Shown here piece by piece: positions 13,401-59,083 of a DNA stretch of 64,000 nt (positions are counted from its first letter, which is position 1; every line of letters starts with the position of its first letter). The notes under the pieces are model-generated. The model made no database searches. It saw nothing but the letters and a program-made list of their open reading frames with translations, and was not told where the DNA came from. Source of the stretch: an uncultured virus (IMG/VR IMGVR_UViG_3300032328_000910). Lineage: Duplodnaviria > Heunggongvirae > Uroviricota > Caudoviricetes > Crassvirales. The stretch lies in IMG/VR virus record IMGVR_UViG_3300032328_000910, one strand, 5' to 3'. The position numbers and the translations under genes were made by a program.

Positions 13401-16400
13401 CGGGTTGCTAAGTATAGATGTCCAAATGTCAATAATACGATTGTCACGAGCTTTACGAGAATTATCTTGTAAAGATTTACTTTCGTCAAATTGTACTTTG
13501 CTATATGTACGTTTACCATCAACGTCATTGACTTCAAAGTGTGGAATTACACCAAACTTCTTATCAACGTCAAAGTCCGCACCAGTAGAAGTAACAATCT
13601 CACGAGGCATTACAATAGTACTACCCATAGATTGAGGTAAAAACCCAACTACTTTAGTATAAACCATACTATACTTCTCTTCAGAAGGAATACGATACCA
13701 AAGCATAGTACGAACTTCTTCAGGAATGTTATTAATATCGTCAAGCTTATATTCACCTGTAACTTCATCTTTGATGTAGAACTTCTCACTCCACGCAGGT
13801 AGTAATACTTCCGCAGCTACTACTTTACCATCAGGTGTAAGTTCAGTCATTTTAAGACTAAAATCATTAGCGTCAACTTTTTCTTTAAGCCAATTGATAT
13901 TGCCCATAGTGGCACTATCATAAGCGTCTAAGTCAATAACCGTAGGTTTAGCAGCTTGATTAAGCTTATTAGTAACGAATACTGAAGAAAGAAGTACGGC
14001 ACTACCGCCAGGTAACTTTTGATTTGTTACATTATTGGTAAATAGAGATGTAAGAATACTTTCCCATTTATTAGCCATGTGACTTACAAACATAGGAAGA
14101 GTAAATTCATTACCATCAATAGTATCAATAAGTTCAATCGCGTCAACATAGTTGTCACTAACTCCACGTCTTTCAATTTCACTAACTAAGACCTCTCTGA
14201 GTTTGTTTTTATCGGGAAATTTATAGCCCGCAGTTCCATCATTACGTGTAAATTTAACTGCTCCGATACGTTCAATAAGATTCGTAGCGTCTTCTTGAAT
14301 ATTAGCCGCCATCGTATCGAAATATATTTGAATAAGCTCACTTGTTTTGTAATCTTTACCGTTAACAGTGTAAATACCATCAGCAGGTAAGTTACTAATA
14401 ATAAGTTTAGCAATTTGAGTACCGAGAAGATTATCAGCGTCCATTAAGTGGTCAGGAACATCTAATTGCACACCCCAGTTTTTATTCTCAAACGTTTTAT
14501 GCGTAAACCCATTATCAACGTGGTAATTATTCAGAGCGTTATCATCTATTTTACCATCTTTATCAGTGATTCGCATTACGTGTGTAATACCAACCTTTTC
14601 AGCAGACTCAAAGAAAACTTCATCAAGCTTATTTTCATTCATCCACTTGTACAGTTTTTCAGCATCAGTTCCCTTAATTAATTGAGGGATAAGTGGGACA
14701 GAAGAATATTTCACTTGGTCAGCTACAAAACGACCTTGAAACTCACTATAAGTTCTACCGTAATAGAAACCTTTAATTGGCTGTAAAAATAGATTAAGGT
14801 CATTAACATCAAGAGTATCACCTTTGCGAACCTTTCTAAAAAGCTTTTCATAATTCTTACTCCAACGTCCTAATCCTTTAACTATCTTTTCATAACGGTC
14901 TATGCTAACGTAGCCTTGACCATCGCCAATATTGATACTATGGTATGCACTTACAATGTCATGAACTGCTTTTTCAAGTTCGTTCAAATCTTCGTCTGCA
15001 TCACGTTTGCTTACTTTAGCTACTCGCATTTCTAAACCTCGCAACTTAGGTTGTTCACGTTTAATTGCAACAGCTACGTTTTCAGCAATGCTACCGTAAA
15101 TATCAGATGCAAGTTCTACGTCTTTGATAGTAGCACCTGTAAACGTTTCACCCATAACTTCAAGTAATGGGCGTACAGATGGAGCAATAGCTTCAAACGC
15201 GCGCTTATTACTATCTTTAGCGTGTTTGTATTCTGCATGGTCACCAATAAAGAAATTAAACTGTTCTACATTTGAAATATGACTGTTAAGCATATATTCA
15301 GCTATAAATTCAGTAAAGTTATTGTAACGAGCATATTGCTCAGTTCCTTTAATAATCTCTTCAGCGTACAGTTCTTTACCCTTTTTGATACGGTTCTCTA
15401 CAAACTTGTGAATACCCGCAGTAATTTCAGTGTCAATAGCTAATTGAGTTTCAGGATTCACATTAAGTACAAATCCATTCTCAAACAGAGATTTAACTTT
15501 AATAGCAGGTATGTTATAAAACTTAAACACATTGCCAGTAGGTTTACCACCATTCATTAGAATTGGCATACCATTTTTATCAGTTTTTTGATAATGGTAA
15601 TTCTTTTCTAATTGATAGTAGTCAACATGAATATCGCTATCATAATCAGGTGAATTGTAAGCTTTATGTTCTTTAGGTATAAATGTACCATCGCCCATAT
15701 CAACATACATCAGTTTTTGCGCAGCTTTCATCTTATCAATCTCCGCATTAACCATATTCTTTAAAGCTTTAAATAAATCACTATTTTCAAGTAATTTACC
15801 GTCTTTAAATATAGCTCTAAAGCGAGGACTTGTAATGAACGGAATGTTAGCTTTATCAGCAGGCACTAAGAATGGTAAACGTATGGTATCAGGGTCACCT
15901 GTTTCAAGATACATAATAAGCTGCGTAGCCATCCATGTACTATCACTCATTTCAGTGTATTTTTCACCTTCCACTTCTGAAAGATTCTTTACACCGTCAA
16001 TTAGACCATAATTCCATTTAGTAACAAAATCCCAATTTATGTCTGCAATAGAATTAGGATATTTATTACCAAGTATAAGACCATTAGTACCATTTGTACC
16101 CATAAGCCAATTGCTACGAGTCATACCATCGCTCATATAAAACTGTTGCATCATTGCAAGTACACGCTCTTTAGCTTGGTCTTGACCAATGTAACGCATA
16201 TCGACAGCAGCCTTAAGTTCTTCAAATAAATTACTCATGAAGTGAGGATTAGTACTACTATATACATTGTTACCTTTAACGTCAAACGAGCTACTTTCAA
16301 TCTTATCGTATTGGAATAGATTTACAACTTGAGATATGTCATTAAGACGACTAAGAGATTGGAATTTATATTCAAGCTTCTCTTCAGCAGTTAGCTTGTT

Positions 16401-19400
16401 GTAAATTCCTATCTCCCTGTAAATAGAAGCCAATCCAGTTTTAAATATATCAGTCCAAACGTCTTTCTGACTACCAAAGCGTTGCCCAATAATAGGGTTA
16501 TTGATAACTTTAGTTAACTGTGTATTTGTAACTACAATGCCAAGATTATTAAGCAAATCAACTGTTTTATCAATTATATCCGCTTTGTTATTATTAAAAC
16601 GGTCTTGATAAGCAAGTTGTTCTAACTCTTTATAAATAGCACCCATTTGTTTTAAATACTCAACACTAAAGTTACCTTGCTCAATCTTAGCAAGGAAATT
16701 AGATTTCCATTCATTAGCAAGTAAGTAATGACTTGTATTTTTGTTACTAACATCAACCTTAATTGAAGTTTCTTGTCCATTATCAAGCAGTATCACATAC
16801 TTATCAGGACTTTGCTTATGAAATTGAGTGTACCAAGCTGCACGTAGATTTTGGTCATTCTCTAAACGCGCAACTATATGTATAATTGCAGGGTCATGGT
16901 TTGACATATTACGTAAGCGGTCAATCATTTCTTCAATAGTAGCAGCTCCAAGCATATTACGCTGAATATAAGGATAAACCTTATTAAAGTCAAGGAAAGT
17001 TTCAAGACCTAAGAAAGTATCAGTATCAGACACATATTCGCCTTCACTATTAATAGCAGTTTTAGGCGTAGTCATAATTACTTTTTTAATGTAATTACTG
17101 ATACTATCTTTACTTGACGTTCCAAATACAGCACCATCATCCCACTTCTTTTCAATCTCCTGCATTTCGAGATTGTCCAAATCTTCATCTTGTGTGATAC
17201 CAAATTGACGACTAACATTTTGTATAGTTTTAGGCATAAATTTATCTAAATCGAGTAATACACGATTGATATTTTTACGCTTATTAGCAGGAACAATTCT
17301 AAGATAACGTTGAAGCTCTGTTTTAATAAACTCTTTAGGAGTTCGCATTGCTTCTGTATTTTGAACAGCAGTATTATCTGCATAATCAACGTACATTTTA
17401 GTCAACAATCCGATTGTTTCGGCTTCTTCAGAACGAGTATAACCCTCGACTACTTTGAAACGTTTAATAGTCTTAGCATAAGCTACTGCTTTGCTATCAG
17501 GCGCGTATTTAAACGTACCACTATCAATAGAAGCAAATAATTTATCAATAGCCTTACTACCACCATAACTACGAGGTTTAAACCAATTTCTAACCCAATC
17601 CCAAAGTTTAGCAAATAAACCTTTAGCCGCGGGAACTACTTTATTAGTTTCACCTTTTTTCAGCATATAATCCATGAACTCATCTGCAATAGCTTCTTCA
17701 AGTTCTAATGCAGTCAAATTGCCATACTTCTCGCGAGCTTCGTCAAGTATTTTACTACGTTGAGCGTCATCAAGGTAAAGCCAAAATACAACGTGAAATG
17801 CTTCGTGATATTCAGTACCACGTACAGCTTGACGACTAATCTTAACCATAGCATCTTCAAATACACCCCAAGCTTGTACACCTTGACGAGTTAAAAGATT
17901 AGCAATGTTAGTATCAAGTGGTATATTGTCGCCAAATACACTTTTCCACCATGTTTCAGCAGCTTGTACGTCAATAGTATTAGCAGCTTTTGTATCAGGC
18001 TTAACAGCTTTTAAACGAGTTACACCTGTACCCAAGTCAATAATTTTAACTAACCATCCATTCGCAGTTTCAGATATTTCAACAGATTGGTTATCTGTCA
18101 ATTTATCAAACACTTCATCAGATGAAGCTAATTCTTCAGCGAGTGCTTTACTGTTAGTAAGAACTTTACCTTCTTTGAAAAGTGTATCAGCAATACTTTG
18201 AACTTCTGTAGCAGCAATATCTTTTGTTTCATCAACGGTAACTGATACGGCTTTAATCTTAGCTTCTAAATCTTTAATACGATTTTGAAGTTCAGTTATT
18301 TGACCGTCAGTGCTGTATTCAGCAATGAAATTATTTTTACCTTTTTTAAGAATATCAATAATAATATTACGAATATCTTGCAAATCCATGTTAGCTAATT
18401 CAGGTGAAGCTTGCATATCTTCAGCAAGTTTTTCAACTGTCTTACCTTTTTTATCTGTAAATGCAGTATTAACATCTTTGCCGACTTTACCGCCAGTTTC
18501 TTTTTTAGCAGACTCTGGAGTAACTTTAAAGCCTTTACTACCAAGTAACTTAGCTATGAAAACTTCAGCTACAAATTCAGGAGTATTAGCCTTAAGCGCT
18601 TCAAGCTTGTCAGTAAGTTCTGCAATTTCATTATACATCTTTTGAACATCATCAACGGCTTCGTCAGTTTTAACCTGTTCTGTAACTTGCTTTGCAGTTT
18701 GACCAATTACACTAAGTTGAGGGTCAATAGCGATAACTAAATTACTATTACGAGCTTTACTTGCCGACTTAGATGTAACCATTGGAATTGGATTACCAAA
18801 GCCGTCTTTAAGTATTTTACCATCTTTACCTTTAATTGGGTCAATATCAATTGTCAATTTACCAGTAGCTAAGAGATAACGAGCGTAGCTTTTATGCCCT
18901 TTATATTCACCTTTAGTTTGAAGGTTTTTAAAATTAACATTGAAACGCTTTTTAGCAAATGCGCGCTTAATCAAGTCTTCAAATATAGCAGGGTTATTCT
19001 CCATGCTCATACGAGAAACCTTACGTCCTTTTTTATTCGTAAGTTGTATAACTTGAGGCTTACCATCTGCATCTAATTGAGTAATTTCAAGGTTAGTAGC
19101 AACTTCAGTAGTCTTTTGAGATGTAAGATAAATATTAGCTGTAAAGCCATCTCCAAATGTAAACTCAATACGGTCACTAAAAACTTTAAGATAATCTTTT
19201 ACACCAGTCTTTTCAGTTTCAGCAACATACATAATATTATTAAGTTCTTTTTTAAGAGCCTTAATATCTTCATTAGCGAGTACGTTTTTAGGTTCTACTT
19301 TTTGAACGTCAATAAGATTACGAATCTTAGTTATGATTTCCATAACTTTATCGTAAGCTTCTTTAGCCGAAGCCTCATCTACACTAACAGTTTCAAGCTT

Positions 19401-22400
19401 AACAGGTATGTATGTACTGCGGTCGCCAATAATACTATTAGCGCCAGGTATAAGCATATAAGCATTACCCACATAATATACACCATCTTGATTAAAATAA
19501 TCAGTAGCGTCGGGATTACGTTCAAACTTATTACCTTCAGACGAAACGAGTTCAGTTGCAAGACCTGCATCAATTACTTTAGGAACAAAGAAAATTTCAT
19601 CAGCTTCAGGATATAAATCCGTAACATTACGTTGTTCTTTACCACTATTTAAATTACCACTTGTTTTGCGAGTGATAGTAGTAGTTACGCGTGCCATTGG
19701 ATTATTACCCCAAATATTAAATAGCTGTTGTTCTATTTGTTTAGTAGTAGCTATTTGTGATTTTAGAATAGCAATGTGAGAACTAAACGGTTTATCACCT
19801 TCATTCGTACCGTTAATTTCACGTAGCTTCCACGCAGCTAAGTTTTTATCACCTTTACTGTATTTTCTATCTTTAGATTCAATAACGGCAGTTAATTCAT
19901 CAGCCGTCATATTATCAAATAGCTCTGCAAATCCAAGCGTTTTTATTAGTCCAGCAGGGCTATTAATAAAACCAATTAAAGTACCTCCAAGTGTTTTAAG
20001 AGCGTAACCTCCAGCAGGAGTCGGTACGATTTCGATAGTAGAACCTTTACCCAACTGTGGATTAAGAACCGTAGATATAATTTTCTCTAAGTCTTTTTGT
20101 TCAACTTGAGGGTCATAGCCATACATTTCTTTAACCGCTTTATTATATGCACCCGCATCTACAACTCCATTAACTATACCTAAGTTTACAAAACTAAGAT
20201 AAATGTTGTTTTCTTGCATATTGTTACCGAGATTATTAGTCGAGGTTACTTCTTCAGTTGCAAGTAAAGTTTGCAGTTCCGCAGGTAAATTGATTTGATT
20301 ATCGGTAATGTATTTAACAACGTCACCTTTAGTAATCATACCATTCGGACCTGTACCTTTAATCTTACTAAAATCAATATCGTAATCTCTTGCAAGAACA
20401 CGAGCTGCTTCTGTAATACGAATCGGAGATGGCATCGGAGCGTTAACCGGTTCTGCATTTACAATAGCTTTAGCAAATAATTCATTTAGTTTAGCTAATG
20501 CGGGTTCAGCATGGAATAACTCCCGCAGCTTTGTTTCTACAGGGGTATTAACAAGATAATCAGCAGTCATTGGACTCGTAAGAAAATATGTAAGTATTTC
20601 TTCAGGATTACTTGAAGTAAGAATCGCATCAGCAATCTCATTCATAGTTTTACGGCCAAAATCACCACCTTTAGCAGCGTATAAATCACGTAAAGCATCT
20701 ATTACAGGTTTTAAAGCTTCGTTAAAATCTTTACGTTCTTCAGGTACACTTCCAGTTTTATCATTCCATACAGGAAAAGCATTATTAAGTACAAAATGTA
20801 CAAACTCATGTGCAAATGCAATTTCAACAAGAAAAGCTAAGTCTTGACCACTTTCTTCAAAAGCTGTAAGTGAAATTGTAATACTGTTCGTAGCAGGATT
20901 AAATTGAGCAATTGCACCGTTATACAAACGCTTATCAGTAATTTCAATTGTAGGACGAATCGGATTTAAACTATAAAACAAGTTGTCAATGTGAGTTGGA
21001 ACTACATATCCATACTTTCTTAGAAATTCTTGCATTACAGTGCGTACATTCGACGCTACACCTTCGTAGTTACCTAAAACTACAAAAACTTCTTTAAGTG
21101 AAGTTACAACGTCAGCATTATTAACAACTGGATTTACAATAACAGTAGATTCAGTAGAAGTAACTATTGTAGCATTCCCTGTAGAAATAGACTGCTCGAG
21201 AACTGAAAGTGCTATTTTACCTTTAACAACTTTACCATTACTATCAGTATAAGAAACTTCAGCCCAAGCTTTACCAAGTTGGTCAGTATACAAACTATTA
21301 ACAGTATAAACATTACCATCTTTAGAATAAGTAGTACCTACTACAACATTTGTAGATGTAGTAAATGTACCATCTGCAGTAGTGTTAGCTTTACCAGCTT
21401 TAGCAAGTTTAATATATTCACCTTTAATACGTTCTTTAGCAGCTTTATTTTCTGCAAATGTAGGACTATCAAATAACTTTTTAAGGTTATCTAATTTCTG
21501 TTTAACAGAAAGCTTTTTATCATTGACAATATTAGCAATCTTATCACTAAACTTATCAAATAACGCACGACGCTGTCCTTCAGAATTCTTTTTACCTCTA
21601 AAGACAGCGAATCCATCAATAACGTCATCGTCTTCAACAGTATTGACGTAATCATTATTAATATCATCTTCTGTAATCCAATTAGTTTCTGTACCAGTTT
21701 CTGTAGTTGGCGCAGTAGGTGTAACTTCAGTCGTAGGTGTAGGTTGAAGTAAAGAAGGTTCAGCTTGTATACGTTGTTGAACACTTTGACGAGCTTTCAT
21801 ATCGGCAAGTTTTTGTTCAGCATACTTACGATATTCTTCGTTCTTTTGGTTCTTAACCTCAATCTCAAGATTAGAAACAACTTGATTAATGTCAGGATTA
21901 GCGAGCAATTTATCAACGCTTACCTTATAATCACCAAATTGTTTTTCTTTAACCCTACGTTCTTCGGCAGCACGATTATTGTCAAAAGCTTTTTGTGCAG
22001 CTTCTCTACCAGTTGAATTATTTAATTCGTTAATACGTTCGTTATTATGCGAAATAGTAGCTTCATATCCAACCCATTCTTTGTGCAAATCAAGTAAGTC
22101 CTTATTTTTAAGGTCTATAATCTCAATTTTACCACCAGCATCATTGATAGATTTAGTAAGTTTTTCTTTCTTAGCTTTAGCTTTATCAATTTTGGATTGA
22201 ATTTCTTTCTTATCCATTTGAAACGTATCCGCGTGTTGAGCTACCAATTCCCAATCTTTGATATATTCATCAAGAGCCTGGATTTCAACTAAGTCACGTG
22301 CGTGAGGATTAGCATGATTTTTAATTTGGTCATCAGTTTCTTCCAATGCTTGCACACGAGATTTAACACTACCTACTGCATCAAGAACTTTTTCGTTCTC

Positions 22401-24374
22401 ATATAGCAAACCTGTTTGTTCTCTAATAATAGCACGCTCGGCTTCGGGTTTTAAACCTTTACCTGCAATATTATTGTAAGCTTTACGGTACGCAGTTTCA
22501 GTTGCAATAATGTCACGTTCCATAATAGAAATAGCATTATCAATATTTTCAAGACCAAAGTTAAGACGCTCTTCTTCGGTAAGATTAGCAACCATTTTGT
22601 CTTTAAATTCTTTAGAACGAACTTGGTCGAGTAGTACATCAATGCTTCTACTTTCAGCTGCATTAATAGCCATATTAAGAGCTAATGCACTTTTCTGTTG
22701 TGAGATAATACGGTCAGCTTTATCACGAGGCATTTTACCGCTATCAACAGCAGCTTGAACTTCTTTAATCTTAGCAGAAAAACCTGCAATTGCCATTTCA
22801 CGATTAGCAATGTTTTTAAGAAGAGCATTTTGTTGTTCTTTAGCAGCTTTGTTTGCACCAGTTACGCGTCCGCCTATCTGTTCAAACGCTACTCCGCCAA
22901 TCATACCCCAAAGACCTGCTTCCCATGCGTCAGCATTTTGCAGATTCTTCATAGTACGTTCAGTGAAAAATTCAGATTCAGGTTCTTCTCCACTTTTATC
23001 TGTACCTATCATCTTTTTACCATAGTACTTACCTTCTTCACCTCCAATGTAATTTATTACTTCTTCTATACCTTCAGTACTCTGTCTACCTACTGCCATC
23101 GCATAGGGCGAAGCATTTGCAAAGGCTCTGCCGAACTTTGTTTTGGGGGCTTGCCCTAAGGCTGTATTTATCTTATTATTGCGAGCTACCCCCCTTGTAC
23201 GCCCTAAGGGACTAAGTATAGTTCCCATTTGGATAAAATCAAAAACGATATTCGCCGAATTTACCTGATAAGTGTAATATCCAGCATTACTCGCAACGTA
23301 GTTAGCAAGGTTCTCTTTAGTTATATCTAAACCTCTTTCCGCAGCCATTTTTACAAAATCCTTGCCTACTTCAGATGCAAGTACTTCATTATACTTTTCA
23401 TCATCGGTAAATGCAGCTAAGCTTTCGCGCTTTACATCATTAACAACTCCGAAAGCTTCTTTAGTATTTTCAGCATGACGCATTACAGCAGCACCTGTTA
23501 ACTGTTTAATTAGGTCTTTAGATGTGCGACCCATATTAGTACCAGCATTTAAGATATTATCTGCGGCAGCTTGCATACGTAGTTTACCAGTAACTTTTTC
23601 TACAGGAGCAGCACCTCTCGCTACTTTAGCAGCTTGAGTTAATTGTTTAAGCTTATTGGCTTTACCCGCTACATTAGTAGCTTTAGCTAAAGCAGAAGTC
23701 ATCATCTTAAATGCAGTAAGAGCTTTAGTAGCACCCAAAGCCGGAACCATCATAGAAAGTGTAGATGCCATGCTAACACCATTCTTAAACCACCACCCAC
23801 TATCGCCAAAAGAAAAGTTACCATCTTCTTTAAGCTGATATATAGGTGTAGTAGCGCGAGTACTGTTTTGAATGTCGTCACCCAAACTAATCATATAATT
23901 ATCAAAGTCGGTAGTACCGCCATAAATAGCATTATAAATCATTTCAGGTGCTTCTCCAAGTGTACCAATAGCTCCAATTGTACCACCTAATATTTCACCA
24001 ACAAGAGATTGATTAACCCAACCTAAAGCTTGTGCACCAAAAGATTGACCACGAGCTCTTTGCGTATTAATATCATCAAGTGATTGGTCAATACGAAGTT
24101 CTTTGATATAATCCTTATATTCATCGCGGTTAATTGTAGACATAAAACCTTGATGAATTTGTTGATTATCTTGTCCACGTTTACCACCTTTAATAACATC
24201 TAAACCTTTTTTATCAGTAGTACCCTGAACGTTAGGTTCTGTTGTAGGTGGAGTAACAGGAACTACAGGAGGTGCAGTAGAACCTCTACTTCCTCGGCTT
24301 GTACCACTTCCAGTTAAAGCACTAAGCCCGCTGCGTAGGTTATCGCCATTGCCATTACCATTGTTATCTGCCAT
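10440..24374 (-). CDS. giant virion-packaged RNA polymerase polyprotein (crAss-type double-psi beta-barrel vRNAP)
   Basis: 4644 aa; catalytic TGADFDVDK (DFDVD at 13563-13577) preceded by YRIP, plus DGQGY, KYS and ESAEKVG motifs of crAss vRNAPs; Gly/Ala-rich hydrophobic N-terminus; two HExxH motifs. Confidence 0.9.
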   Translation of the reverse strand: MADNNGNGNGDNLRSGLSALTGSGTSRGSRGSTAPPVVPVTPPTTEPNVQGTTDKKGLDVIKGGKRGQDNQQIHQGFMSTINRDEYKDYIKELRIDQSLDDINTQRARGQSFGAQALGWVNQSLVGEILGGTIGAIGTLGEAPEMIYNAIYGGTTDFDNYMISLGDDIQNSTRATTPIYQLKEDGNFSFGDSGWWFKNGVSMASTLSMMVPALGATKALTAFKMMTSALAKATNVAGKANKLKQLTQAAKVARGAAPVEKVTGKLRMQAAADNILNAGTNMGRTSKDLIKQLTGAAVMRHAENTKEAFGVVNDVKRESLAAFTDDEKYNEVLASEVGKDFVKMAAERGLDITKENLANYVASNAGYYTYQVNSANIVFDFIQMGTILSPLGRTRGVARNNKINTALGQAPKTKFGRAFANASPYAMAVGRQSTEGIEEVINYIGGEEGKYYGKKMIGTDKSGEEPESEFFTERTMKNLQNADAWEAGLWGMIGGVAFEQIGGRVTGANKAAKEQQNALLKNIANREMAIAGFSAKIKEVQAAVDSGKMPRDKADRIISQQKSALALNMAINAAESRSIDVLLDQVRSKEFKDKMVANLTEEERLNFGLENIDNAISIMERDIIATETAYRKAYNNIAGKGLKPEAERAIIREQTGLLYENEKVLDAVGSVKSRVQALEETDDQIKNHANPHARDLVEIQALDEYIKDWELVAQHADTFQMDKKEIQSKIDKAKAKKEKLTKSINDAGGKIEIIDLKNKDLLDLHKEWVGYEATISHNNERINELNNSTGREAAQKAFDNNRAAEERRVKEKQFGDYKVSVDKLLANPDINQVVSNLEIEVKNQKNEEYRKYAEQKLADMKARQSVQQRIQAEPSLLQPTPTTEVTPTAPTTETGTETNWITEDDINNDYVNTVEDDDVIDGFAVFRGKKNSEGQRRALFDKFSDKIANIVNDKKLSVKQKLDNLKKLFDSPTFAENKAAKERIKGEYIKLAKAGKANTTADGTFTTSTNVVVGTTYSKDGNVYTVNSLYTDQLGKAWAEVSYTDSNGKVVKGKIALSVLEQSISTGNATIVTSTESTVIVNPVVNNADVVTSLKEVFVVLGNYEGVASNVRTVMQEFLRKYGYVVPTHIDNLFYSLNPIRPTIEITDKRLYNGAIAQFNPATNSITISLTAFEESGQDLAFLVEIAFAHEFVHFVLNNAFPVWNDKTGSVPEERKDFNEALKPVIDALRDLYAAKGGDFGRKTMNEIADAILTSSNPEEILTYFLTSPMTADYLVNTPVETKLRELFHAEPALAKLNELFAKAIVNAEPVNAPMPSPIRITEAARVLARDYDIDFSKIKGTGPNGMITKGDVVKYITDNQINLPAELQTLLATEEVTSTNNLGNNMQENNIYLSFVNLGIVNGVVDAGAYNKAVKEMYGYDPQVEQKDLEKIISTVLNPQLGKGSTIEIVPTPAGGYALKTLGGTLIGFINSPAGLIKTLGFAELFDNMTADELTAVIESKDRKYSKGDKNLAAWKLREINGTNEGDKPFSSHIAILKSQIATTKQIEQQLFNIWGNNPMARVTTTITRKTSGNLNSGKEQRNVTDLYPEADEIFFVPKVIDAGLATELVSSEGNKFERNPDATDYFNQDGVYYVGNAYMLIPGANSIIGDRSTYIPVKLETVSVDEASAKEAYDKVMEIITKIRNLIDVQKVEPKNVLANEDIKALKKELNNIMYVAETEKTGVKDYLKVFSDRIEFTFGDGFTANIYLTSQKTTEVATNLEITQLDADGKPQVIQLTNKKGRKVSRMSMENNPAIFEDLIKRAFAKKRFNVNFKNLQTKGEYKGHKSYARYLLATGKLTIDIDPIKGKDGKILKDGFGNPIPMVTSKSASKARNSNLVIAIDPQLSVIGQTAKQVTEQVKTDEAVDDVQKMYNEIAELTDKLEALKANTPEFVAEVFIAKLLGSKGFKVTPESAKKETGGKVGKDVNTAFTDKKGKTVEKLAEDMQASPELANMDLQDIRNIIIDILKKGKNNFIAEYSTDGQITELQNRIKDLEAKIKAVSVTVDETKDIAATEVQSIADTLFKEGKVLTNSKALAEELASSDEVFDKLTDNQSVEISETANGWLVKIIDLGTGVTRLKAVKPDTKAANTIDVQAAETWWKSVFGDNIPLDTNIANLLTRQGVQAWGVFEDAMVKISRQAVRGTEYHEAFHVVFWLYLDDAQRSKILDEAREKYGNLTALELEEAIADEFMDYMLKKGETNKVVPAAKGLFAKLWDWVRNWFKPRSYGGSKAIDKLFASIDSGTFKYAPDSKAVAYAKTIKRFKVVEGYTRSEEAETIGLLTKMYVDYADNTAVQNTEAMRTPKEFIKTELQRYLRIVPANKRKNINRVLLDLDKFMPKTIQNVSRQFGITQDEDLDNLEMQEIEKKWDDGAVFGTSSKDSISNYIKKVIMTTPKTAINSEGEYVSDTDTFLGLETFLDFNKVYPYIQRNMLGAATIEEMIDRLRNMSNHDPAIIHIVARLENDQNLRAAWYTQFHKQSPDKYVILLDNGQETSIKVDVSNKNTSHYLLANEWKSNFLAKIEQGNFSVEYLKQMGAIYKELEQLAYQDRFNNNKADIIDKTVDLLNNLGIVVTNTQLTKVINNPIIGQRFGSQKDVWTDIFKTGLASIYREIGIYNKLTAEEKLEYKFQSLSRLNDISQVVNLFQYDKIESSSFDVKGNNVYSSTNPHFMSNLFEELKAAVDMRYIGQDQAKERVLAMMQQFYMSDGMTRSNWLMGTNGTNGLILGNKYPNSIADINWDFVTKWNYGLIDGVKNLSEVEGEKYTEMSDSTWMATQLIMYLETGDPDTIRLPFLVPADKANIPFITSPRFRAIFKDGKLLENSDLFKALKNMVNAEIDKMKAAQKLMYVDMGDGTFIPKEHKAYNSPDYDSDIHVDYYQLEKNYHYQKTDKNGMPILMNGGKPTGNVFKFYNIPAIKVKSLFENGFVLNVNPETQLAIDTEITAGIHKFVENRIKKGKELYAEEIIKGTEQYARYNNFTEFIAEYMLNSHISNVEQFNFFIGDHAEYKHAKDSNKRAFEAIAPSVRPLLEVMGETFTGATIKDVELASDIYGSIAENVAVAIKREQPKLRGLEMRVAKVSKRDADEDLNELEKAVHDIVSAYHSINIGDGQGYVSIDRYEKIVKGLGRWSKNYEKLFRKVRKGDTLDVNDLNLFLQPIKGFYYGRTYSEFQGRFVADQVKYSSVPLIPQLIKGTDAEKLYKWMNENKLDEVFFESAEKVGITHVMRITDKDGKIDDNALNNYHVDNGFTHKTFENKNWGVQLDVPDHLMDADNLLGTQIAKLIISNLPADGIYTVNGKDYKTSELIQIYFDTMAANIQEDATNLIERIGAVKFTRNDGTAGYKFPDKNKLREVLVSEIERRGVSDNYVDAIELIDTIDGNEFTLPMFVSHMANKWESILTSLFTNNVTNQKLPGGSAVLLSSVFVTNKLNQAAKPTVIDLDAYDSATMGNINWLKEKVDANDFSLKMTELTPDGKVVAAEVLLPAWSEKFYIKDEVTGEYKLDDINNIPEEVRTMLWYRIPSEEKYSMVYTKVVGFLPQSMGSTIVMPREIVTSTGADFDVDKKFGVIPHFEVNDVDGKRTYSKVQFDESKSLQDNSRKARDNRIIDIWTSILSNPLHYKDTLSPQSFEDGKNAKAEVAALLGEDSDDINAMSVEGQLYFRKQNIAGRALKGMAADSNAFLTIAQVAKMKLREDLGFKILYPVEQRAELERKYGKGTEITKDGVKYIEINHNQLGWNQDGSFDNATGKTTTRHASQMLAMILDIVKEGIPDNVNTYTFYPYITMLNTGIDIQYTSMFIRQPILNDLAIRFFENQGAFSDGSTTEIEDIKKKYQKALIKEMVKAGHKIGNDKDFMQAVRDDNFFISAEMSKDLFGIESGAVTAFAIDELRNGLSDYATFKNGDRDNAKLIAYLKQQLKVLEAYKTYKEAGEAYNDVLNVFNTDKIGAGPSMSKTESLNRKIEQATYYYRQSELATAIKNKRNHTAKLFNVSDYNTLAELAEAKAKAKTEKQEFKYKDTDYVKFGEGARVFVNIDGKDIPATVAIYPEFFKQTVNGSVVHPDYAGMTHKSVYSILETYKQFANDLSVDVLGGEFIEHSPAFKDLFDNVQRFTGLGYNEKVVKSVSTFAKHLIMSELPAFKYLDRGRIMGVTTEIETNSDISFDAFKELSFANKLMIMKQRMKDQLADDTHIMNYLVPKMDVDTVKRNGTHMVEFINTKTDNLTDDRLTDSIVEMWNSEDEFVADLARDLVNHNFVSASFEMKKDSYGKLIPTSILKELGLGEHLYKAAFEMQNRDYFAKHYPNFMDNFIRNNAGNSNIVPYVQTKWADKTRSNTNGTPIWVANNGIITVTTKSLLKDDANIKKAPYITVPTYAVQKVNGFNVRVKTGTKLYRKYGEVNGAVKYYEVTKLGNRNMFELDNTTITDNLALHEPALFEHVIQNGHYIGVPEFKRLLETRPAIANAYMISDSYIGDTKFKSIFLDKNSNKDKYDVGENVLVTSTKPVGEIAPNNKLTGTLAKTYNVIKDGANVITDKGSSIDTYLDKFAKDGVLIKIVHNDVVSYSKTIESVNIGKFRTAGLTLEQRDALLEAHKNEQIDENGADCTN

Positions 24375-53943: not shown

Positions 53944-54936
53944 TTATATATTTATAATTTTGTGAACATGACTTTTAAGATAACTAATGTTATAAAATTG
54001 CGCAGGGTAAAACTTACACTTACCATCAAGTCCAAGTATCTCTTCATCATACTTATTAAGCATAGGACGAATATGACAAAGAATTAAACCTTTACATTCA
54101 AGTCCCCATAGTTCGCAAAGATAAGCATACATACTAAGTTGAAGTGTATAAAGAACTCCTTTACAATTCTGTAAATCATTGACAGGAGCTTTTAATCTTT
54201 TATCTGTAAGAATAAACTCTGATGTATTAAGTTTAGCTTGACGATTAGCATCCCATGCTTTCTTATAATAACCAGCTTCAAACTTAAGTTCATTCTTATT
54301 AGTCTTCCAATCTATAATGTAAAACTCTTTACCGCGTACAGCTAATACATCAATAGTACCGCTAACCTTATGCTCATACGAATATACTCTTTGTTCAGCG
54401 TATAATACAAACCCAGCTTTAATCGCATTAGTAAGCGTAGTATATATTTCAGGTTCAAACAAACTAAGAGGTGAGTTTTTAAGCTCTTCTTCATTTAGAA
54501 TCTTAAACTTAAAGTTCTGTTCTATATTAGTAGGCGTACTGTAACTTTTCCCTGTAGAAACAAACCAGGTATTTATCGCATCTTCAAGAGCATTATGTTT
54601 ATCATTACCTCTATCTGTACTTTGTTTAGCACCATCGACCCACTCTTGCTTAATAACTTCAGGAGTCTTATAAGTACGAAAAATACCATTATACAACTCT
54701 TTAAGTCCATACCAATTCCCAGGTTGTTTATCAACTTGAACCCAAATCATACGCTTATTGGTATCGGGTCTAAGCTTATAACCCATTTGGTCTAAAGCTC
54801 TATACATAGCCCAAAACTCATTGTCGTACTCTTCCTCAAACTCTTTTATCTTAGTAGTAACAGACGTATAGACATTACCTTCATCGTCTGTATACTTATG
54901 CTGTATCGGGTCAAATAGTATCTTTACTTTTTTCAT
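53944..54936 (-). CDS. PD-(D/E)XK (Cas4/RecB-like) nuclease
   Basis: FD...HKY, SVTT, G...H, EQRV...SGTIDVL...IIDWKT and YTLQLSMY motifs; start reassigned to ATG 54936. Confidence 0.85.
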   Translation of the reverse strand: MKKVKILFDPIQHKYTDDEGNVYTSVTTKIKEFEEEYDNEFWAMYRALDQMGYKLRPDTNKRMIWVQVDKQPGNWYGLKELYNGIFRTYKTPEVIKQEWVDGAKQSTDRGNDKHNALEDAINTWFVSTGKSYSTPTNIEQNFKFKILNEEELKNSPLSLFEPEIYTTLTNAIKAGFVLYAEQRVYSYEHKVSGTIDVLAVRGKEFYIIDWKTNKNELKFEAGYYKKAWDANRQAKLNTSEFILTDKRLKAPVNDLQNCKGVLYTLQLSMYAYLCELWGLECKGLILCHIRPMLNKYDEEILGLDGKCKFYPAQFYNISYLKSHVHKIINI

Positions 54937-55081
54937 TTGGTTTAGTTTTACAACGTTCAATATCAGCTTTAGATGCAAGAATTGTTTTAGCTTCATCAAT
55001 CTTAGTCCAAGTAAGGTCAGTAAATACTATCACATGACCAGGGATATGTTTGTTATTAAACGTACTTCTTATATGTCGCAT
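54911..55081 (-). CDS. small hypothetical protein (56 aa, MRHIRSTFNNKH...)
   Basis: Not in the track; fills the gap and overlaps both neighbours' ends. Confidence 0.4.
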   Translation of the reverse strand: MRHIRSTFNNKHIPGHVIVFTDLTWTKIDEAKTILASKADIERCKTKPNEKSKDTI

Positions 55082-55226
55082 TTGTAGCTTTAGATTTTTT
55101 AATAAATTTAGGTTTATTACCAGTTAGCATAATAAGTATTTCTTCTTCTTGAAGAAGAAAAGTGGTAGTTGTAAAACCTTTACGACGTAGTTTTGCAACA
55201 TTAATTTCTTTTACAGGAGTACTCAT
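55056..55226 (-). CDS. small basic hypothetical protein (56 aa)
   Basis: ATG 55226 after an AT-rich leader, just downstream of the tRNA-like gene. Confidence 0.45.
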   Translation of the reverse strand: MSTPVKEINVAKLRRKGFTTTTFLLQEEEILIMLTGNKPKFIKKSKATNATYKKYV

Positions 55227-55243
55227 AATTATATATTTATTTG

Positions 55244-55350
55244 CATCAAGGGTGGGATTCGAACCCACAACTTTATTACTAAAGTGAATTACCTCATTAA
55301 CACTAACAGTGCTAACTTCAATCGCTGTATACCAATTCCGCCACCTTGAT
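55244..55350 (-). tRNA. atypical class-II tRNA-like RNA with elongated anticodon arm (apical loop CT-GTT-AG)
   Basis: 7-bp acceptor ATCAAGG/CCTTGAT, D-arm TGGCGGAATTGGTATAC, T-arm GTGGG-TTCGAAT-CCCAC, variable hairpin CTTTA-GTAA-TAAAG, discriminator G. Confidence 0.75.
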
Positions 55351-55374
55351 TACCGTTAAGTATTATTTAATATT

Positions 55375-55644
55375 TTATTGTTGTACAACGTCCTTATCTA
55401 CATCATAATCACTTCCGGCACTTACAGCTTTAGCTTGTTCAAAAGCTTTAATAGCTTTTTGCTTTTCAAGTTCTTTTTCATACCATTCATTATTACCATG
55501 CGTAGCTGCACGTTGTTTCATTTTTTCAATAAAATCAGCTTCGTCTTGAGAACGCTCAGGTACACTTTTAACGTCATTACTGAATGTACGTATCATCAAT
55601 GCTATAAGCAAAGATACCACAAAAAAACTAAATAACAAAACCAT
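55375..55644 (-). CDS. small membrane-anchored protein
   Basis: N-terminal TM helix and charged coil; in the lysis neighbourhood. Confidence 0.55.
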   Translation of the reverse strand: MVLLFSFFVVSLLIALMIRTFSNDVKSVPERSQDEADFIEKMKQRAATHGNNEWYEKELEKQKAIKAFEQAKAVSAGSDYDVDKDVVQQ

Positions 55645-55651
55645 AAGGCAT

Positions 55652-55906
55652 TTAATTTAAAAATTGATTAATTAACATACTAATACCAGCACCACTTGCA
55701 TAACCTAAACCAGCTATAATAGTACCTCTTAGTTGTTCTGTTTTTGAATCCGCATTCTGAACTATATAAGATAATAACACCAAGTTTAACAACGGCGCTA
55801 TAAACTCTAATAACATGACTATCACAATCACATTGTTCACTATGCTTAGCGTATTAACTATTGACAGTAACGACAATAGTAACGCAGAGAAATACAAGCC
55901 AAACAT
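55652..55906 (-). CDS. putative holin
   Basis: 84 aa with 2-3 hydrophobic helices, immediately downstream of the amidase. Confidence 0.5.
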   Translation of the reverse strand: MFGLYFSALLLSLLSIVNTLSIVNNVIVIVMLLEFIAPLLNLVLLSYIVQNADSKTEQLRGTIIAGLGYASGAGISMLINQFLN

Positions 55907-55908
55907 GA

Positions 55909-56601
55909 TTACGGTCTTCTAACCGCCCACTCAAGCCATTCAGCTTTGAGGTCAGTATCCGCTTGCATATATTCATCAGTCATAAGAATCTTTGCATCTT
56001 CTGCATTGTCAAAGAACAAAGTTTCAAATAGAACAGCAGGCATAATCGTTTGTACAAGTACATAGAACTTAGCCTCATAATCGCCGTCGCCATCTGTACG
56101 TTGCTGTATAAGTTTAAGCTTATTGTGCGCAAGCTCTTGCGTAAACTTAGTACTATACATTTCAATGAACTTCTCTGCAAGTTCGTCACTCGGACTATAC
56201 CCAGGCGCAGTCCAAATAGACATTCCACGTGCAGTAGTATTAATAGGGTTAGTTGGACCGGTAATAGCATTGCTATGTTCACTAACATAAATACCAGGTT
56301 GCACTGTACTATGATACATATTGGCAATGTTAACTCGGTGCGCCAAATCAGTATCTTTCCAATTATGACAGACGGGTACTACGTGAATGCCACGCTTAAT
56401 CAGCTTCTCGGCTAACACCAATCCATAATCGGCGTTCTTAACTCCTTCATAAAAAGTACCTCTATCATGCATAGAAGTAGTATCTTTATGCGTGTACATT
56501 TTAGAAGGTGCAGTTGTGTACTTACGAGCGTGGTCAAGTTTACCATGACCCATGTCTAAGAAGACACATTTATCCAGCGGTTTGCGATACATTATCGTCA
56601 T
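55909..56601 (-). CDS. N-acetylmuramoyl-L-alanine amidase (Amidase_3) endolysin
   Basis: LDMGHG, E, L..RV..AN, VSEHSNA and FYVL..T.MPAVLFE..FFDN..D motifs. Confidence 0.92.
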   Translation of the reverse strand: MTIMYRKPLDKCVFLDMGHGKLDHARKYTTAPSKMYTHKDTTSMHDRGTFYEGVKNADYGLVLAEKLIKRGIHVVPVCHNWKDTDLAHRVNIANMYHSTVQPGIYVSEHSNAITGPTNPINTTARGMSIWTAPGYSPSDELAEKFIEMYSTKFTQELAHNKLKLIQQRTDGDGDYEAKFYVLVQTIMPAVLFETLFFDNAEDAKILMTDEYMQADTDLKAEWLEWAVRRP

Positions 56602-58244: not shown

Positions 58245-58275
58245 AAGGGCTAAGTTGATTATCAACCCAGCCCTT
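58245..58275 (-). terminator. intrinsic terminator
   Basis: Minus strand AAGGGCTGGGTTGAT-A-ATCAACTTAGCCCTT followed by TTTATTT. Confidence 0.6.
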
Positions 58276-58413: not shown

Positions 58414-58698
58414 CTATAAGATAGACTCTACGTTCTTAAAACGTTTATTAATACCTAATTCTTCAAAGCGTTCATTAATCTTGTTAACGCGTTTAGCACT
58501 TACTTGAAAAGAACCAAACGCACTAAGCCTAATAGATTGTTGTTTAGACATGGCGTGAGATACAGCAACAAACTGAAAGTCAATAATATTAAATACGTCT
58601 TCATCACTTAGAGGAGGTTTATCATCAAACCGCCCTGACTTCTTTAATCTTTCATTTACCTTCTTAGCTATTGCTAATGTAGTTTCTTCTTTACGCAT
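58414..58698 (-). CDS. HU/IHF-like DNA-binding protein
   Basis: LS.EDV..II..QF..V...M.....IRLSAFGSFQV HU-type signature; ATG 58698 overlaps the upstream stop. Confidence 0.7.
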   Translation of the reverse strand: MRKEETTLAIAKKVNERLKKSGRFDDKPPLSDEDVFNIIDFQFVAVSHAMSKQQSIRLSAFGSFQVSAKRVNKINERFEELGINKRFKNVESIL

Positions 58699-59083
58699 TA
58701 CTTTGATTACGTTTAGAATCTGCAAGTGCGACAAGAGATATAAACCCTTCGGTCAATAACTTCCTCATTAAGTGAATCTCTGACATAATCAGAGCTTCAG
58801 GTTTAGGGTGATTACCAACGTGAAGATTATACTCATGTACAACTTTCATATCCTCAAGATTAACGGAATTGGTTTCGTCAACAACACCGATAAGGATAGA
58901 AACAGTAGCATAGTTCTCTGATGTAGCAGTAAGTAAAGAAATGCGAGGTTTAATTGCAAACTCAACTGCATATCTATAATCAAGTTTATTGTTCTTAGCT
59001 ATTGTATTAGCGTGTTCAACAATACCTTCAACTACACCGAGTAGTATGTCTTTTTGATGTTTAAGATTTTCTATTGTTTCCAT
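58691..59083 (-). CDS. hypothetical protein, first gene of the late block
   Basis: 130-aa ORF directly below the host-type promoter. Confidence 0.65.
   Translation of the reverse strand: METIENLKHQKDILLGVVEGIVEHANTIAKNNKLDYRYAVEFAIKPRISLLTATSENYATVSILIGVVDETNSVNLEDMKVVHEYNLHVGNHPKPEALIMSEIHLMRKLLTEGFISLVALADSKRNQSNA

What the first reader, a model, noticed from the sequence alone, without database searches (positions are those of the whole stretch)
55244..55350. Chimeric tRNA-like RNA: Leu/Ser-type body with an elongated, bulged anticodon arm ending in an Asn-type loop
Seen (minus strand): ATCAAGG TG GCGGAATTGGTATACAGC G ATTGAAG TTAGCA CTGTTAG TGTTAA TGAGGTAA TTCA CTTTAGTAATAAAG TT GTGGGTTCGAATCCCAC CCTTGAT G. 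The acceptor stem, T-arm and variable-arm hairpin are perfectly paired. The D-arm resembles tRNA-Leu and the discriminator is G as in tRNA-Ser. The anticodon region is ~38 nt rather than 17: TGAA/TTCA, an asymmetric bulge, then TTAGCA/TGTTAA closing a canonical-looking CT-GTT-AG loop (Asn anticodon). No CCA is encoded. Intact stems argue against simple decay. Inference: it may be a tRNA mimic or decoy for host anticodon nucleases or synthetases, an intron-containing tRNA, or an RNase P/Z processing signal in the late transcript next to the lysis genes.
Basis: partly seen in the sequence, partly recalled or inferred. Interest (0 to 1): 0.72.

Follow-up and report, generated by a model that had tools for sequence, protein, structure and literature searches.

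The report
Odd tRNA-shaped gene in crAss-like phage
A crAss-like phage carries a 107-base gene that keeps the top half of a transfer RNA but has long hairpins where the anticodon arm should be. Its close relatives keep the same odd form, so it is probably a working tRNA look-alike and not a normal decoding tRNA.

Summary
Window 55244-55350 (minus strand) is a tRNA-derived element:
- It has a perfect 7-bp acceptor stem, a canonical T-arm, a tRNA-Leu-type D-arm and a 5-bp variable hairpin.
- The discriminator is G and no CCA is encoded.
- About 38 nt stand where 17 nt of anticodon arm belong.

ARAGORN (default) and Rfam do not call it a tRNA. ARAGORN's intron mode gives different answers for the window and for its one fetched homologue.

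The window is a distant crAss-like phage. The element lies between the lysis cassette and the exonuclease/terminase genes, in a 148-nt gap of a one-directional gene block.

The close relatives found (locus L019 and contigs of 4 metagenome runs) keep the long form. All 9 substitutions fall in loops or preserve pairing, including one compensatory U-A to C-G change. A null simulation gives P about 0.01-0.05.

A 9-bp hairpin is robust, and a small GNRA hairpin competes with the base helix.

The more distant relatives examined have no tRNA.

Best reading (0.42): a non-decoding tRNA-like RNA that tRNA-processing enzymes cut out of the late transcript. Rivals are a real but expanded or spliced tRNA, a specific decoy, and a relic. 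No expression data exist. I rate it a new variant of a known kind, of moderate interest.

The parts
55244..55350 (-). Whole tRNA-like element, 107 nt including discriminator G (idx i = 55351 - position)
   Evidence: Sequence. ARAGORN -i recognises the acceptor/D/T frame. The homologue L019 aligns over the full length.
55344..55350 (-). Acceptor stem, 5' strand ATCAAGG (idx 1-7)
   Evidence: Pairs 7 of 7 with 55245-55251 and is invariant in L019. Pair probability is 0.82-1.0.
55324..55341 (-). D-arm of tRNA-Leu type, with G18 G19 (idx 10-27)
   Evidence: Compared with tRNA-Leu(taa) of L058. One extra A sits in the 3' strand. The D-loop carries a T16 change and a 1-nt insertion in relatives.
55317..55323 (-). 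Linker G-ATTGAA (idx 28-34). TGAA can pair with TTCA (idx 63-66).
   Evidence: Invariant in L019. The helix has probability 0.01-0.02 and adds about 0 kcal/mol.
55296..55316 (-). Long hairpin H1: 9 bp plus a GUU triloop (idx 35-55). It can also be drawn as 6-7 bp plus a CUGUUAG loop.
   Evidence: Pair probability is 0.65-1.0. Three one-sided changes all keep pairing: G.U to A-U, U-A to U.G, G.U to G-C.
55286..55295 (-). Either a 7-nt bulge or the mini-hairpin GAG-GUAA-UUC (idx 56-65)
   Evidence: Probability is 0.28-0.66. The G58>A change in relatives turns G.U into A-U.
55271..55284 (-). Variable-arm hairpin CUUUA-GUAA-UAAAG (idx 67-80)
   Evidence: Compensatory change U69-A78 to C-G. The loop changes GUAA to GCAA; both fit the GNRA pattern (the pattern itself is recalled).
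55252..55268 (-). T-arm GUGGG-UUCGAAU-CCCAC (idx 83-99)
   Evidence: Invariant. It matches the tmRNA model's T-arm at 11.5-14.3 bits. It is identical to the tRNA-Ser T-arm in many genomes.
55244..55251 (-). Acceptor 3' strand CCUUGAU plus discriminator G; no CCA follows
55909..56601 (-). Upstream neighbour: endolysin (N-acetylmuramoyl-L-alanine amidase)
   Evidence: Pfam Amidase_3 at 3.6e-18. PHROG endolysin at 1.1e-16.
55652..55906 (-). Upstream neighbour: 84-aa hydrophobic, holin-like protein
   Evidence: Translation. The holin reading rests on hydrophobic segments only; there is no family hit.
55375..55644 (-). Upstream neighbour: 89-aa protein with an N-terminal hydrophobic anchor
   Evidence: Translation. 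No family hit.
55056..55226 (-). Downstream neighbour: 56-aa basic ORF whose ATG lies 17 nt after the discriminator. It is absent in the X5 variant.
   Evidence: Translation. The X5 contig skips 55061-55231 but keeps the element.
53944..54999 (-). Downstream neighbour: exonuclease
   Evidence: PHROG_298 at 2.1e-23.

Best explanation
This is a tRNA-derived gene that no longer works as a decoder.

What it keeps: everything that tRNA-processing enzymes read. That is the 7+5-bp acceptor/T-arm minihelix, the T-loop, the D-loop G18G19, a type-II variable hairpin and G73.

What it has lost: the anticodon arm. A stable 9-bp hairpin and a short GNRA hairpin (or bulge) stand in its place.

Proposed mechanism:
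1. It is transcribed inside the one-directional late block, between the lysis cassette and the exonuclease/terminase genes.
2. Host RNase P cuts at its 5' end (before A at 55350). A 3' tRNase cuts after G at 55244.
3. This splits the long message at that point and releases a stable tRNA-shaped RNA of about 107 nt. That RNA can receive CCA but cannot reach the decoding centre.

Shown: the anatomy, the placement, retention of the long form in relatives, and structure-preserving substitutions.

Inferred: transcription, the cuts, CCA addition, and any effect on mRNA fate or on host tRNA-binding proteins.
For: Anatomy:
- Canonical acceptor, T-arm and D-loop features are present, with about 38 nt in place of the 17-nt anticodon arm.
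- It is not a standard tRNA. ARAGORN finds 0 genes in 64 kb. Rfam finds 0 of 4227 families at gathering score. In E-value mode only a 17-nt T-arm match appears.

Placement:
- It is tightly packed, with 24 nt upstream and 17 nt downstream inside a 148-nt gap between same-strand genes.
- No Bacteroidota-type TAnnTTTG motif lies on the minus strand between 55351 and 55608. This fits co-transcription.

Relatives:
- L019 and contigs of runs X2-X5 keep the long form. None shows a deletion joint inside 55244-55350.
- In X5 both flanks are replaced, yet the block 55232-55355 differs by 1 base.

Substitution pattern, window against L019:
- 33 of 33 pairs (or 32 of 32 in the alternative fold) stay standard in both sequences.
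- There is 1 double change and there are 3-4 one-sided changes; the remaining changes lie in loops.
- In a null simulation, P(no pair broken) is 0.03-0.05. With at least one double change it is 0.008-0.011.

That RNase P and CCA-adding enzyme need only the acceptor/T minihelix is established knowledge, recalled here.
Against: - There is no RNA evidence at all. None of the 8 listed runs is on record as RNA.
- The family is tiny and shallow, at about 90% identity. The covariation therefore rests on one lineage comparison, and the structure was defined on one of the two sequences.
- Control (a) is uninformative with 2 sequences (252 of 500 and 265 of 500 shuffles as high).
- The element is not more conserved than the flanks. 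It has 9 substitutions and 1 indel in 107 nt, against about 14 differences in the other 126 nt of the same 233-nt blast segment.
- A pure processing signal would not need the D-arm, the variable hairpin or the long hairpin.
- The nearest complete relative found (G001, 83 kb) has no tRNA-like element, so the function is dispensable in the wider group.
Confidence: 0.42

Rival explanations
1. It is a real decoding tRNA with a non-standard body. There are two versions. In (a), 21 nt are removed next to position 37/38, leaving the loop G-U-UAA/UAG-(C/A)-A and so a tRNA-Leu(UAA/UAG). In (b), the top of the long hairpin is the true anticodon loop CU-GUU-AG. Together with G73 this gives the two AsnRS identity elements (recalled), in an expanded tRNA-Asn.
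For: - Removing 21 nt leaves exactly 7 loop nucleotides with U33 and a Leu anticodon. This matches the Leu-type D-arm and the long variable arm.
- The G39>A change seen in all 4 runs and in L019 turns UAG into UAA, which is still Leu.
- UUA plus UUG are 40% of the 1483 Leu codons counted. Asn codons are 6.8% of the 19,120 codons counted.
- The inserted stretch pairs with the anticodon, as in eukaryal pre-tRNAs (recalled).
- Lak megaphages, predicted by CRISPR targeting to infect Prevotella, are reported to carry tRNAs with 'enigmatic introns' (PMC6784885, passages, supplement hit).
- ARAGORN -i calls L019 as Asn(gtt).
Against: - ARAGORN -i gives different isotypes and introns for the two homologues: Thr(agt) with 12 nt against Asn(gtt) with 15 nt.
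- The putative 5' junction lies inside a 9-bp helix, so there is no bulge-helix-bulge.
- 21 nt cannot be a group I intron, and no intron family is hit.
- The joined Leu form would have G32, a 27-43 mismatch, an extra nucleotide at position 26 and G73 instead of the A73 that bacterial LeuRS needs (recalled).
- For version (b), C32-G38 and U33-A37 can close the loop to 3 nt. The anticodon would also sit several base pairs too far from the elbow.
- No splicing endonuclease or dedicated RNA ligase family is hit among the 49 window proteins scanned. The only related hit is an ATP-dependent DNA ligase at 201-1064.
Confidence: 0.18
2. It is a non-functional relic: a captured host-type tRNA gene damaged by a small duplication or insertion. 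It persists only because this phage clade is young.
For: - The family is restricted to near relatives at about 90% identity or more. It is absent from G001-G003, from 50,697 phage records and from IMG/VR.
- It is no more conserved than its flanks.
- GTTAG occurs twice, 9 nt apart, and two adjacent hairpins share GUAAU. This hints at local duplication.
- The D-stem has an extra A.
Against: - All 9 substitutions spare the pairing, including a compensatory pair. The null P is 0.008-0.05.
- The acceptor and T-arm are perfect and invariant.
- The block survives intact where both flanks were exchanged or deleted (X5, X2).
- The genome is densely packed.
Confidence: 0.22
3. It is a specific decoy or sponge. 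The tRNA-shaped RNA presents a GUU-containing hairpin loop and/or a SerRS- or AsnRS-like acceptor end (G73, long variable arm). It thereby ties up a host tRNA-targeting defence nuclease or a synthetase.
For: - The loop CUGUUAG and the acceptor/T-arm are invariant in every variant seen.
- G73 plus the T-arm+CCT(T) are identical to the tRNA-Ser genes of many genomes: 104 of 301 genomes have a match, and 10 of 10 inspected loci hold tRNA-Ser there.
- The listing abstract of PMC10264068 proposes a new explanation for phage-encoded tRNAs, and its title says that they evade tRNA-targeting host defences through anticodon-loop mutations.
Against: - No defence system, nuclease or host is known for this phage.
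- The loop is predicted to be largely closed.
- The outer three acceptor pairs differ from tRNA-Ser: AUC/GAU against GGA/UCC. Ser identity elements lie there (recalled).
- The whole idea is inference.
Confidence: 0.12

Closest known systems
Type-II bacterial tRNAs (tRNA-Leu and tRNA-Ser)
   Same: - 7/5 acceptor/T-arm arrangement, U8, G18G19 and the T-loop.
- A D-arm nearly identical to tRNA-Leu(taa) of L058.
- A long variable hairpin.
- G73 and the T-arm+CCT(T) as in tRNA-Ser(gga/cga).
   Different: - About 38 nt stand in place of the 17-nt anticodon arm.
- The first base pair is A1-U72.
- There is an extra A in the D-stem.
- It mixes a Leu-type D-arm with a Ser-type discriminator.
- ARAGORN (default) and Rfam do not call it.
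Lak megaphage tRNAs with 'enigmatic introns' (Devoto et al. 2019, PMC6784885; passages, one supplement hit; preprint passages)
   Same: - These are phage tRNA genes that are too long.
- Bacterial settings do not classify them; only intron-permitting settings call them.
- The inserted sequence is conserved among relatives.
- The predicted hosts of the two phage groups are related, if crAss-like phages infect Bacteroidota as reported (PMC7886860 abstract).
- No splicing mechanism is known.
   Different: - The Lak example seen has a 93-nt insert, against 12-21 nt here.
- Lak phages carry 30-35 tRNAs, while this window has no other tRNA.
- Homology was not tested. The supplement was seen only as the one passage returned.
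tRNA-like processing handles: mascRNA at the MALAT1 3' end, mitochondrial tRNA punctuation, gammaherpesvirus-68 tRNA-like RNAs (all recalled, not read here)
   Same: A tRNA-shaped element inside a longer transcript is cut by RNase P and RNase Z. It has a degenerate anticodon region and does not decode.
   Different: Those are eukaryotic or organellar. No processing has been shown here.
Non-decoding bacterial tRNA-like RNAs: Bacillus cereus tRNA-Other (PMC3399842, listing abstract; mentioned in PMC5389517, passage) and phage T4 stable RNAs C and D (recalled)
   Same: They are small tRNA-derived RNAs that do not work in translation but have other or unknown roles. The T4 RNAs are phage-encoded.
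   Different: There is no sequence relation, and their anticodon-arm architecture differs.
allo-tRNAs and irregular tRNAs (Mukai et al., PMC5389517; abstract and passages)
   Same: They have chimeric identity, with Ser-type elements combined with non-Ser anticodons. They were found in metagenomes and phages and are possibly regulatory.
   Different: allo-tRNAs have an 8/4 or 9/3 acceptor/T arrangement and a normal anticodon arm. This element is 7/5 with an aberrant anticodon region.

Membership tests
Canonical tRNA (Rfam RF00005 / ARAGORN) | 7-bp acceptor stem, 5-bp T-stem and a T-loop with the UUCRANY consensus | tested here: met
Canonical tRNA (Rfam RF00005 / ARAGORN) | 5-bp anticodon stem and 7-nt loop between position 26 and the variable region | tested here: not met
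   About 38 nt stand there instead of 17. The base helix has probability 0.01-0.02.
Canonical tRNA (Rfam RF00005 / ARAGORN) | Detected by standard tools above threshold | tested here: not met
   ARAGORN finds 0 genes (L019 also 0). Rfam gathering mode gives 0 hits. No RF00005 row appears at E up to 10; 1-2 lower-scoring matches of the same clan were hidden.
Enzyme-spliced tRNA intron (archaeal/eukaryal, bulge-helix-bulge) | Both splice sites lie in 3-nt bulges that flank a 4-bp helix | tested here: not met
   By inspection of the fold, the candidate 5' junction (idx 39-41) lies inside the 9-bp helix. There is no bulge on the 5' strand.
Enzyme-spliced tRNA intron (archaeal/eukaryal, bulge-helix-bulge) | The same exon-joined tRNA is predicted in homologues | tested here: not met
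   ARAGORN -i calls Thr(agt) with a 12-nt intron in the window and Asn(gtt) with a 15-nt intron in L019.
Enzyme-spliced tRNA intron (archaeal/eukaryal, bulge-helix-bulge) | A splicing endonuclease is available in the phage or the host | tested here: inconclusive
   No such Pfam family is hit among the 49 window proteins scanned. The window is only part of the genome and the host is unknown.
Group I intron in tRNA-Leu(UAA) | A ribozyme core of about 200 nt or more, inserted between positions 34 and 35 | tested here: not met
   The insert is 21 nt. No intron family is hit. A junction at 34/35 would not give UAA (inspection).
tmRNA | A G3-U70 pair, a tag reading frame, and a score above gathering | tested here: not met
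   The pair is C3-G70. Only the 17-nt T-arm matches, at 11.5-14.3 bits against a gathering score of 47. ARAGORN finds no tmRNA.
allo-tRNA (8/4 or 9/3) | Acceptor stem of 8 or 9 bp with a T-stem of 4 or 3 bp | tested here: not met
   The arrangement is 7/5. The definition comes from the PMC5389517 abstract.
Phage tRNAs with 'enigmatic' insertions (Lak type; an operational class) | An over-long tRNA gene that is called only when introns are allowed, with the insert conserved among relatives | tested here: met
   The class description comes from PMC6784885. Shared ancestry was not tested.
RNase P / tRNase Z substrate (works like) | Cleavage at the 5' end and after the discriminator | not testable with these tools
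   The minihelix features are present. No RNA run was listed.

The most novel reading that the evidence does not exclude
The 21 extra nucleotides are a genuine protein-dependent mini-intron next to position 37/38 of a phage tRNA-Leu(UAA/UAG). In that case a phage of bacteria, or its host, has a tRNA splicing pathway of a kind not described in bacteria. The same pathway could explain the 'enigmatic' tRNA insertions of Lak megaphages and the 38-nt insertion in the tRNA of locus L018.
Probability: 0.08. Interest if true: 0.85.

Novelty: new variant of a known kind. Interest (0 to 1): 0.45.

Why it matters
Phage tRNA genes are usually read as codon supplements or as spare parts against tRNA-cutting defences. 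This element cannot be either in any simple way, yet it is kept with its odd shape.

If it is processed as proposed, it would be a bacterial-virus case of tRNA-shaped 'punctuation' that separates lysis from packaging messages and yields a tRNA mimic.

If instead it is spliced or charged, it would point to unknown tRNA biology in phages of Bacteroidota-type hosts.

It also shows that standard tRNA finders miss such genes. Similar elements may therefore be under-counted in viral metagenomes.

Tried and rejected
Searches for relatives that found nothing useful:
- blastn of 801 nt around the element against 50,697 phage records gave no match.
- The element alone gave only T-arm matches of 20-24 nt in 22 records.
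- IMG/VR scans with the exact T-arm/acceptor 24-mer gave 0 hits.
- The relaxed pattern gave 1 IMG/VR hit, L053, on a contig of the same length (41,843 nt) and with the same sequence around the match as L018. It was not examined further.
- The hairpin pattern gave 2 hits and the D-arm/linker pattern gave 3. All 5 are matches without tRNA features.
- The genome-contig scan gave 21 loci, and none has the 5' acceptor strand.
- Of the 27 loci from the metagenome scan, only L019 is a homologue.

Neighbour-protein routes:
- The exonuclease gave 2 loci at 36% identity, neither with a tRNA.
- TerL gave 2 contigs that begin inside TerL.
- The endolysin gave none.

Expression:
- No RNA holder was listed among the 8 runs, so expression, ends and splicing could not be examined.

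Signals:
- The sigma-70-type scan gave 30 promoter-like sites against 23.2 expected. The only terminator-like hit in the element is its own T-arm read on the plus strand.
- The TAnnTTTG motif is not enriched, at 107 matches against 91.7 expected.

Ideas considered and rejected:
- attP relic. The 5' acceptor strand matches the element's own 3' strand, and no integrase was seen among the families hit.
- Repeated mobile hairpin. The 22-nt insert has no other copy in the window at up to 3 mismatches, and there are no local repeats.
- Plus-strand RNA. The T-loop and D-loop consensus read correctly only on the minus strand.
- L018 as a homologue. It shares the acceptor stem (by design of the search) and the D-arm type. 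Its middle is unrelated and its 5-kb context shares no protein similarity with the window.
- Two apparent matches in sampled genomes (L062, L066) are AT-rich chance matches.

Not done:
- No covariance model was built, because no large collection could be searched with it.
Full report
**What is there**

I number the element idx 1-107, where idx = 55351 - position.

- The acceptor stem ATCAAGG/CCTTGAT pairs 7 of 7.
- The T-arm is GTGGG-TTCGAAT-CCCAC and lies directly next to the acceptor 3' strand.
- U8 and the D-loop GG are present.
- The discriminator is G, and the next bases are CAAAT, so no CCA is encoded.
- The D-arm GCGGAATTGGTATACAGC is of tRNA-Leu type. A tRNA-Leu(taa) in locus L058 has GCGGAATTGGTAGACGC. 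The element carries one extra A in the 3' strand of the stem.
- The T-arm plus CCT(T) and G73 match tRNA-Ser genes. I searched 301 sampled genomes of the phylum of G004. Its record is titled Ignavibacterium album, a class that GTDB places in Bacteroidota (recalled). Of these, 104 gave a match at E <= 0.01, almost all to idx 83-102. All 10 of 10 loci inspected carry tRNA-Ser(gga or cga) there.

The 'chimeric Leu/Ser body' description is therefore correct.

**Standard tools do not call it a tRNA**

- ARAGORN finds no tRNA or tmRNA in the whole 64-kb window.
- Rfam at gathering thresholds finds none of its 4227 families.
- In E-value mode the only related match is the 17-nt T-arm against the tmRNA model, at 14.3 and 11.5 bits against a gathering score of 47. 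One or two weaker matches of the same clan were hidden.
- The whole-element fold is only mildly better than shuffles: -29.7 kcal/mol, z -1.79, with 9 of 200 shuffles as good.

**The central region**

- The robust feature is a hairpin at idx 35-55. It has 9 bp and a GUU triloop, with pair probability 0.65-1.0 in the window and 0.81-1.0 in L019.
- It competes with a mini-hairpin GAG-GUAA-UUC (idx 56-65), which has probability 0.28-0.66.
- Nearest-neighbour models also under-predict real D-arms; the D-stem scores 0.02-0.30 here. I therefore leave both central folds open.
- Both the mini-hairpin and the variable hairpin carry loops that fit the GNRA pattern (the pattern is recalled).

**Context**

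- The window is a distant crAss-like phage. The evidence is Pfam Crass_capsid at 8.3e-76, CrAss tail-ring families, and PHROG portal and TerL hits.
- TerL matches 157 phage records, all below 60% identity and about 28-31% among the 30 rows listed.
- Genes from 59083 down to 5267 all lie on the minus strand.
- Upstream of the element are an amidase endolysin (55909-56601), an 84-aa hydrophobic holin-like protein and an 89-aa membrane-anchored protein.
- Downstream are a 56-aa basic ORF, an exonuclease and TerL.
- The element fills 107 nt of a 148-nt gap.
- No Bacteroidota-type TAnnTTTG motif lies on the minus strand within 258 nt upstream.
- The sigma-70-type scan is not above shuffles, with 30 sites against 23.2 expected.
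- No other tRNA is in the window. Among the 49 proteins scanned by Pfam there is no tRNA-splicing family, only an ATP-dependent DNA ligase at 201-1064.

**Relatives**

- A metagenome scan with the T-loop/acceptor pattern returned 27 loci. One of them, L019, is a homologue, 108 nt long.
- L019 shares three mosaic segments with the window: 96.2% over 79 nt, 89.7% over 233 nt and 87.1% over 85 nt.
- Contigs of four DNA runs were laid at 80% likeness or more. X2-X4 are labelled freshwater metagenome and X5 gut metagenome. All four cover the element, and none shows a joint or deletion inside 55244-55350. Only a 1-nt D-loop insertion is seen.
- In X5 the small downstream ORF is missing (55061-55231 is skipped, with 19 other letters in its place) and the upstream flank is unlike the window beyond 55355. 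Even so, the block 55232-55355 differs by one base.
- No relative carries a normal-length tRNA here.
- More distant relatives have none at all. Loci L001 and L002 (exonuclease 36% identical) have no ARAGORN tRNA and no T-loop motif. RF00005 finds nothing at E <= 1 in 3 of 3 records searched, including a complete 83-kb genome. L018 and L019 were not held for that search.
- There is no homologue in 50,697 phage records, in IMG/VR or among 21 genome-contig hits.

**Substitution pattern**

Between the window and L019 there are 9 substitutions and one D-loop insertion. The same changes appear in the run contigs.

| Change | Where | Effect |
|---|---|---|
| U69>C with A78>G | variable stem | U-A becomes C-G (compensatory) |
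| G39>A | long hairpin | G.U becomes A-U |
| A53>G | long hairpin | U-A becomes U.G |
| U55>C | long hairpin | G.U becomes G-C |
| G58>A | bulge or mini-hairpin | G.U becomes A-U in the mini-hairpin fold; in the bulge otherwise |
| U73>C | variable loop | GUAA becomes GCAA |
| U16 change plus insertion | D-loop | unpaired |

- In both tested structures every pair stays standard in both sequences: 33 of 33 and 32 of 32.
- With only two rows the shuffle control is uninformative (252 of 500 and 265 of 500 as high). The slid controls drop to 32-50% paired, which partly reflects that the structure was derived from these sequences.
- My own null model placed 8 random transitions and 1 transversion on the element, 200,000 times. 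P(no pair broken) was 0.029-0.050. P(no pair broken and at least one double change) was 0.008-0.011.
- This is moderate support for selection on the fold, and it comes from one lineage comparison.
- The element is not more conserved than its flanks, which show about 14 differences in the other 126 nt of the same blast segment.

**Intron reading**

- Deleting 21 nt next to position 37/38 would leave a 7-nt loop G-U-UAG-(C/A)-A. In L019 and in all four runs the anticodon would be UAA (G39>A).
- That gives a Leu anticodon matching the Leu-type body. UUA plus UUG are 40% of the 1483 Leu codons counted.
- Against this reading:
  - The joined form would have G32, a 27-43 mismatch, two nucleotides at position 26, and G73 instead of A73.
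  - The 5' junction lies inside the 9-bp helix, so there is no bulge-helix-bulge.
  - 21 nt cannot be a group I intron.
  - ARAGORN in intron mode gives Thr(agt) with a 12-nt intron for the window and Asn(gtt) with a 15-nt intron for L019. The calls are therefore forced fits.
- I did not generate exon-joined sequences.

**Literature**

- Yutin et al. [quoted passage not shown] In the passages returned they do not describe over-long tRNAs.
- Devoto et al. 2019 (PMC6784885, passages, one supplement passage; preprint passages) report Lak megaphage tRNAs 'larger than expected' with 'enigmatic introns', predicted only with eukaryotic settings. The one example seen has a 93-nt insert.
- Mukai et al. 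(PMC5389517, abstract and passages) describe irregular and chimeric-identity tRNAs that are possibly regulatory.
- PMC3399842 and PMC10264068 were seen only as listing abstracts.
- Five full-text searches returned no description of this architecture. Subscription papers are not covered.
- Earlier notes of this scan held nothing on this element.

**Verdict**

The element is real, tRNA-derived, retained in its long form and under some structural constraint.

| Reading | Confidence |
|---|---|
| Non-decoding tRNA-like RNA excised from the late polycistron by tRNA-processing enzymes | 0.42 |
| Relic | 0.22 |
| Expanded or spliced decoding tRNA | 0.18 |
| Specific decoy | 0.12 |

Under the leading reading, excision punctuates the message between the lysis and packaging genes and releases a stable tRNA mimic. 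All functional steps are inferred, because no RNA data could be obtained.

Noticed in passing
The first is a tRNA-Tyr. The second is a permuted tmRNA (RF04321, 55 bits against a gathering score of 47). The third is a 110-nt tRNA with the same ATCAAGG acceptor stem, in which 52 nt replace 18 positions of the tRNA model (RF00005, 37.5 bits). ARAGORN calls the third only with a 38-nt 'intron' and a non-canonical A33. It may be a second example of phage tRNAs with aberrant anticodon regions.
   Followed up: partly
window 58245-58275 (-): A strong terminator-like hairpin (14 pairs followed by a T-run) lies between the HU-like gene (58414-58734) and the next minus-strand gene. It may mark a transcription-unit boundary upstream of the lysis cassette.
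   Followed up: no
window 10440-24374 (-) and 5267-10384 (-): There is a 4644-aa ORF whose only Pfam hit is a short E3_binding stretch. Next to it is a 1705-aa ORF with a PD-(D/E)XK nuclease domain. Their large size recalls the giant virion proteins of crAss-like phages (recalled). Neither was analysed.
   Followed up: no
window 55061-55231, compared with run X5: One close relative lacks the 56-aa basic ORF downstream of the element (171 nt replaced by 19 other letters). That ORF is therefore dispensable, and the element is a module boundary in a mosaic region.
   Followed up: partly
window 55245-55268 compared with loci L054-L071: The element's T-arm plus the first 3-4 bases of the acceptor 3' strand, and G73, are identical to tRNA-Ser(gga/cga) genes. 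Of 301 sampled genomes of one phylum, 104 gave a match. This is a possible hint to the tRNA donor or the host group. However, the same T-arm also occurs in phage tRNAs of other isotypes.
   Followed up: partly
window 201-1064 (+): An ATP-dependent DNA ligase (DNA_ligase_A_M at 1.3e-08, OB domain at 6.6e-08) also gives a sub-threshold RNA_ligase hit (23 bits against a cutoff of 27). It is the only nucleic-acid-joining enzyme seen in the window.
   Followed up: no
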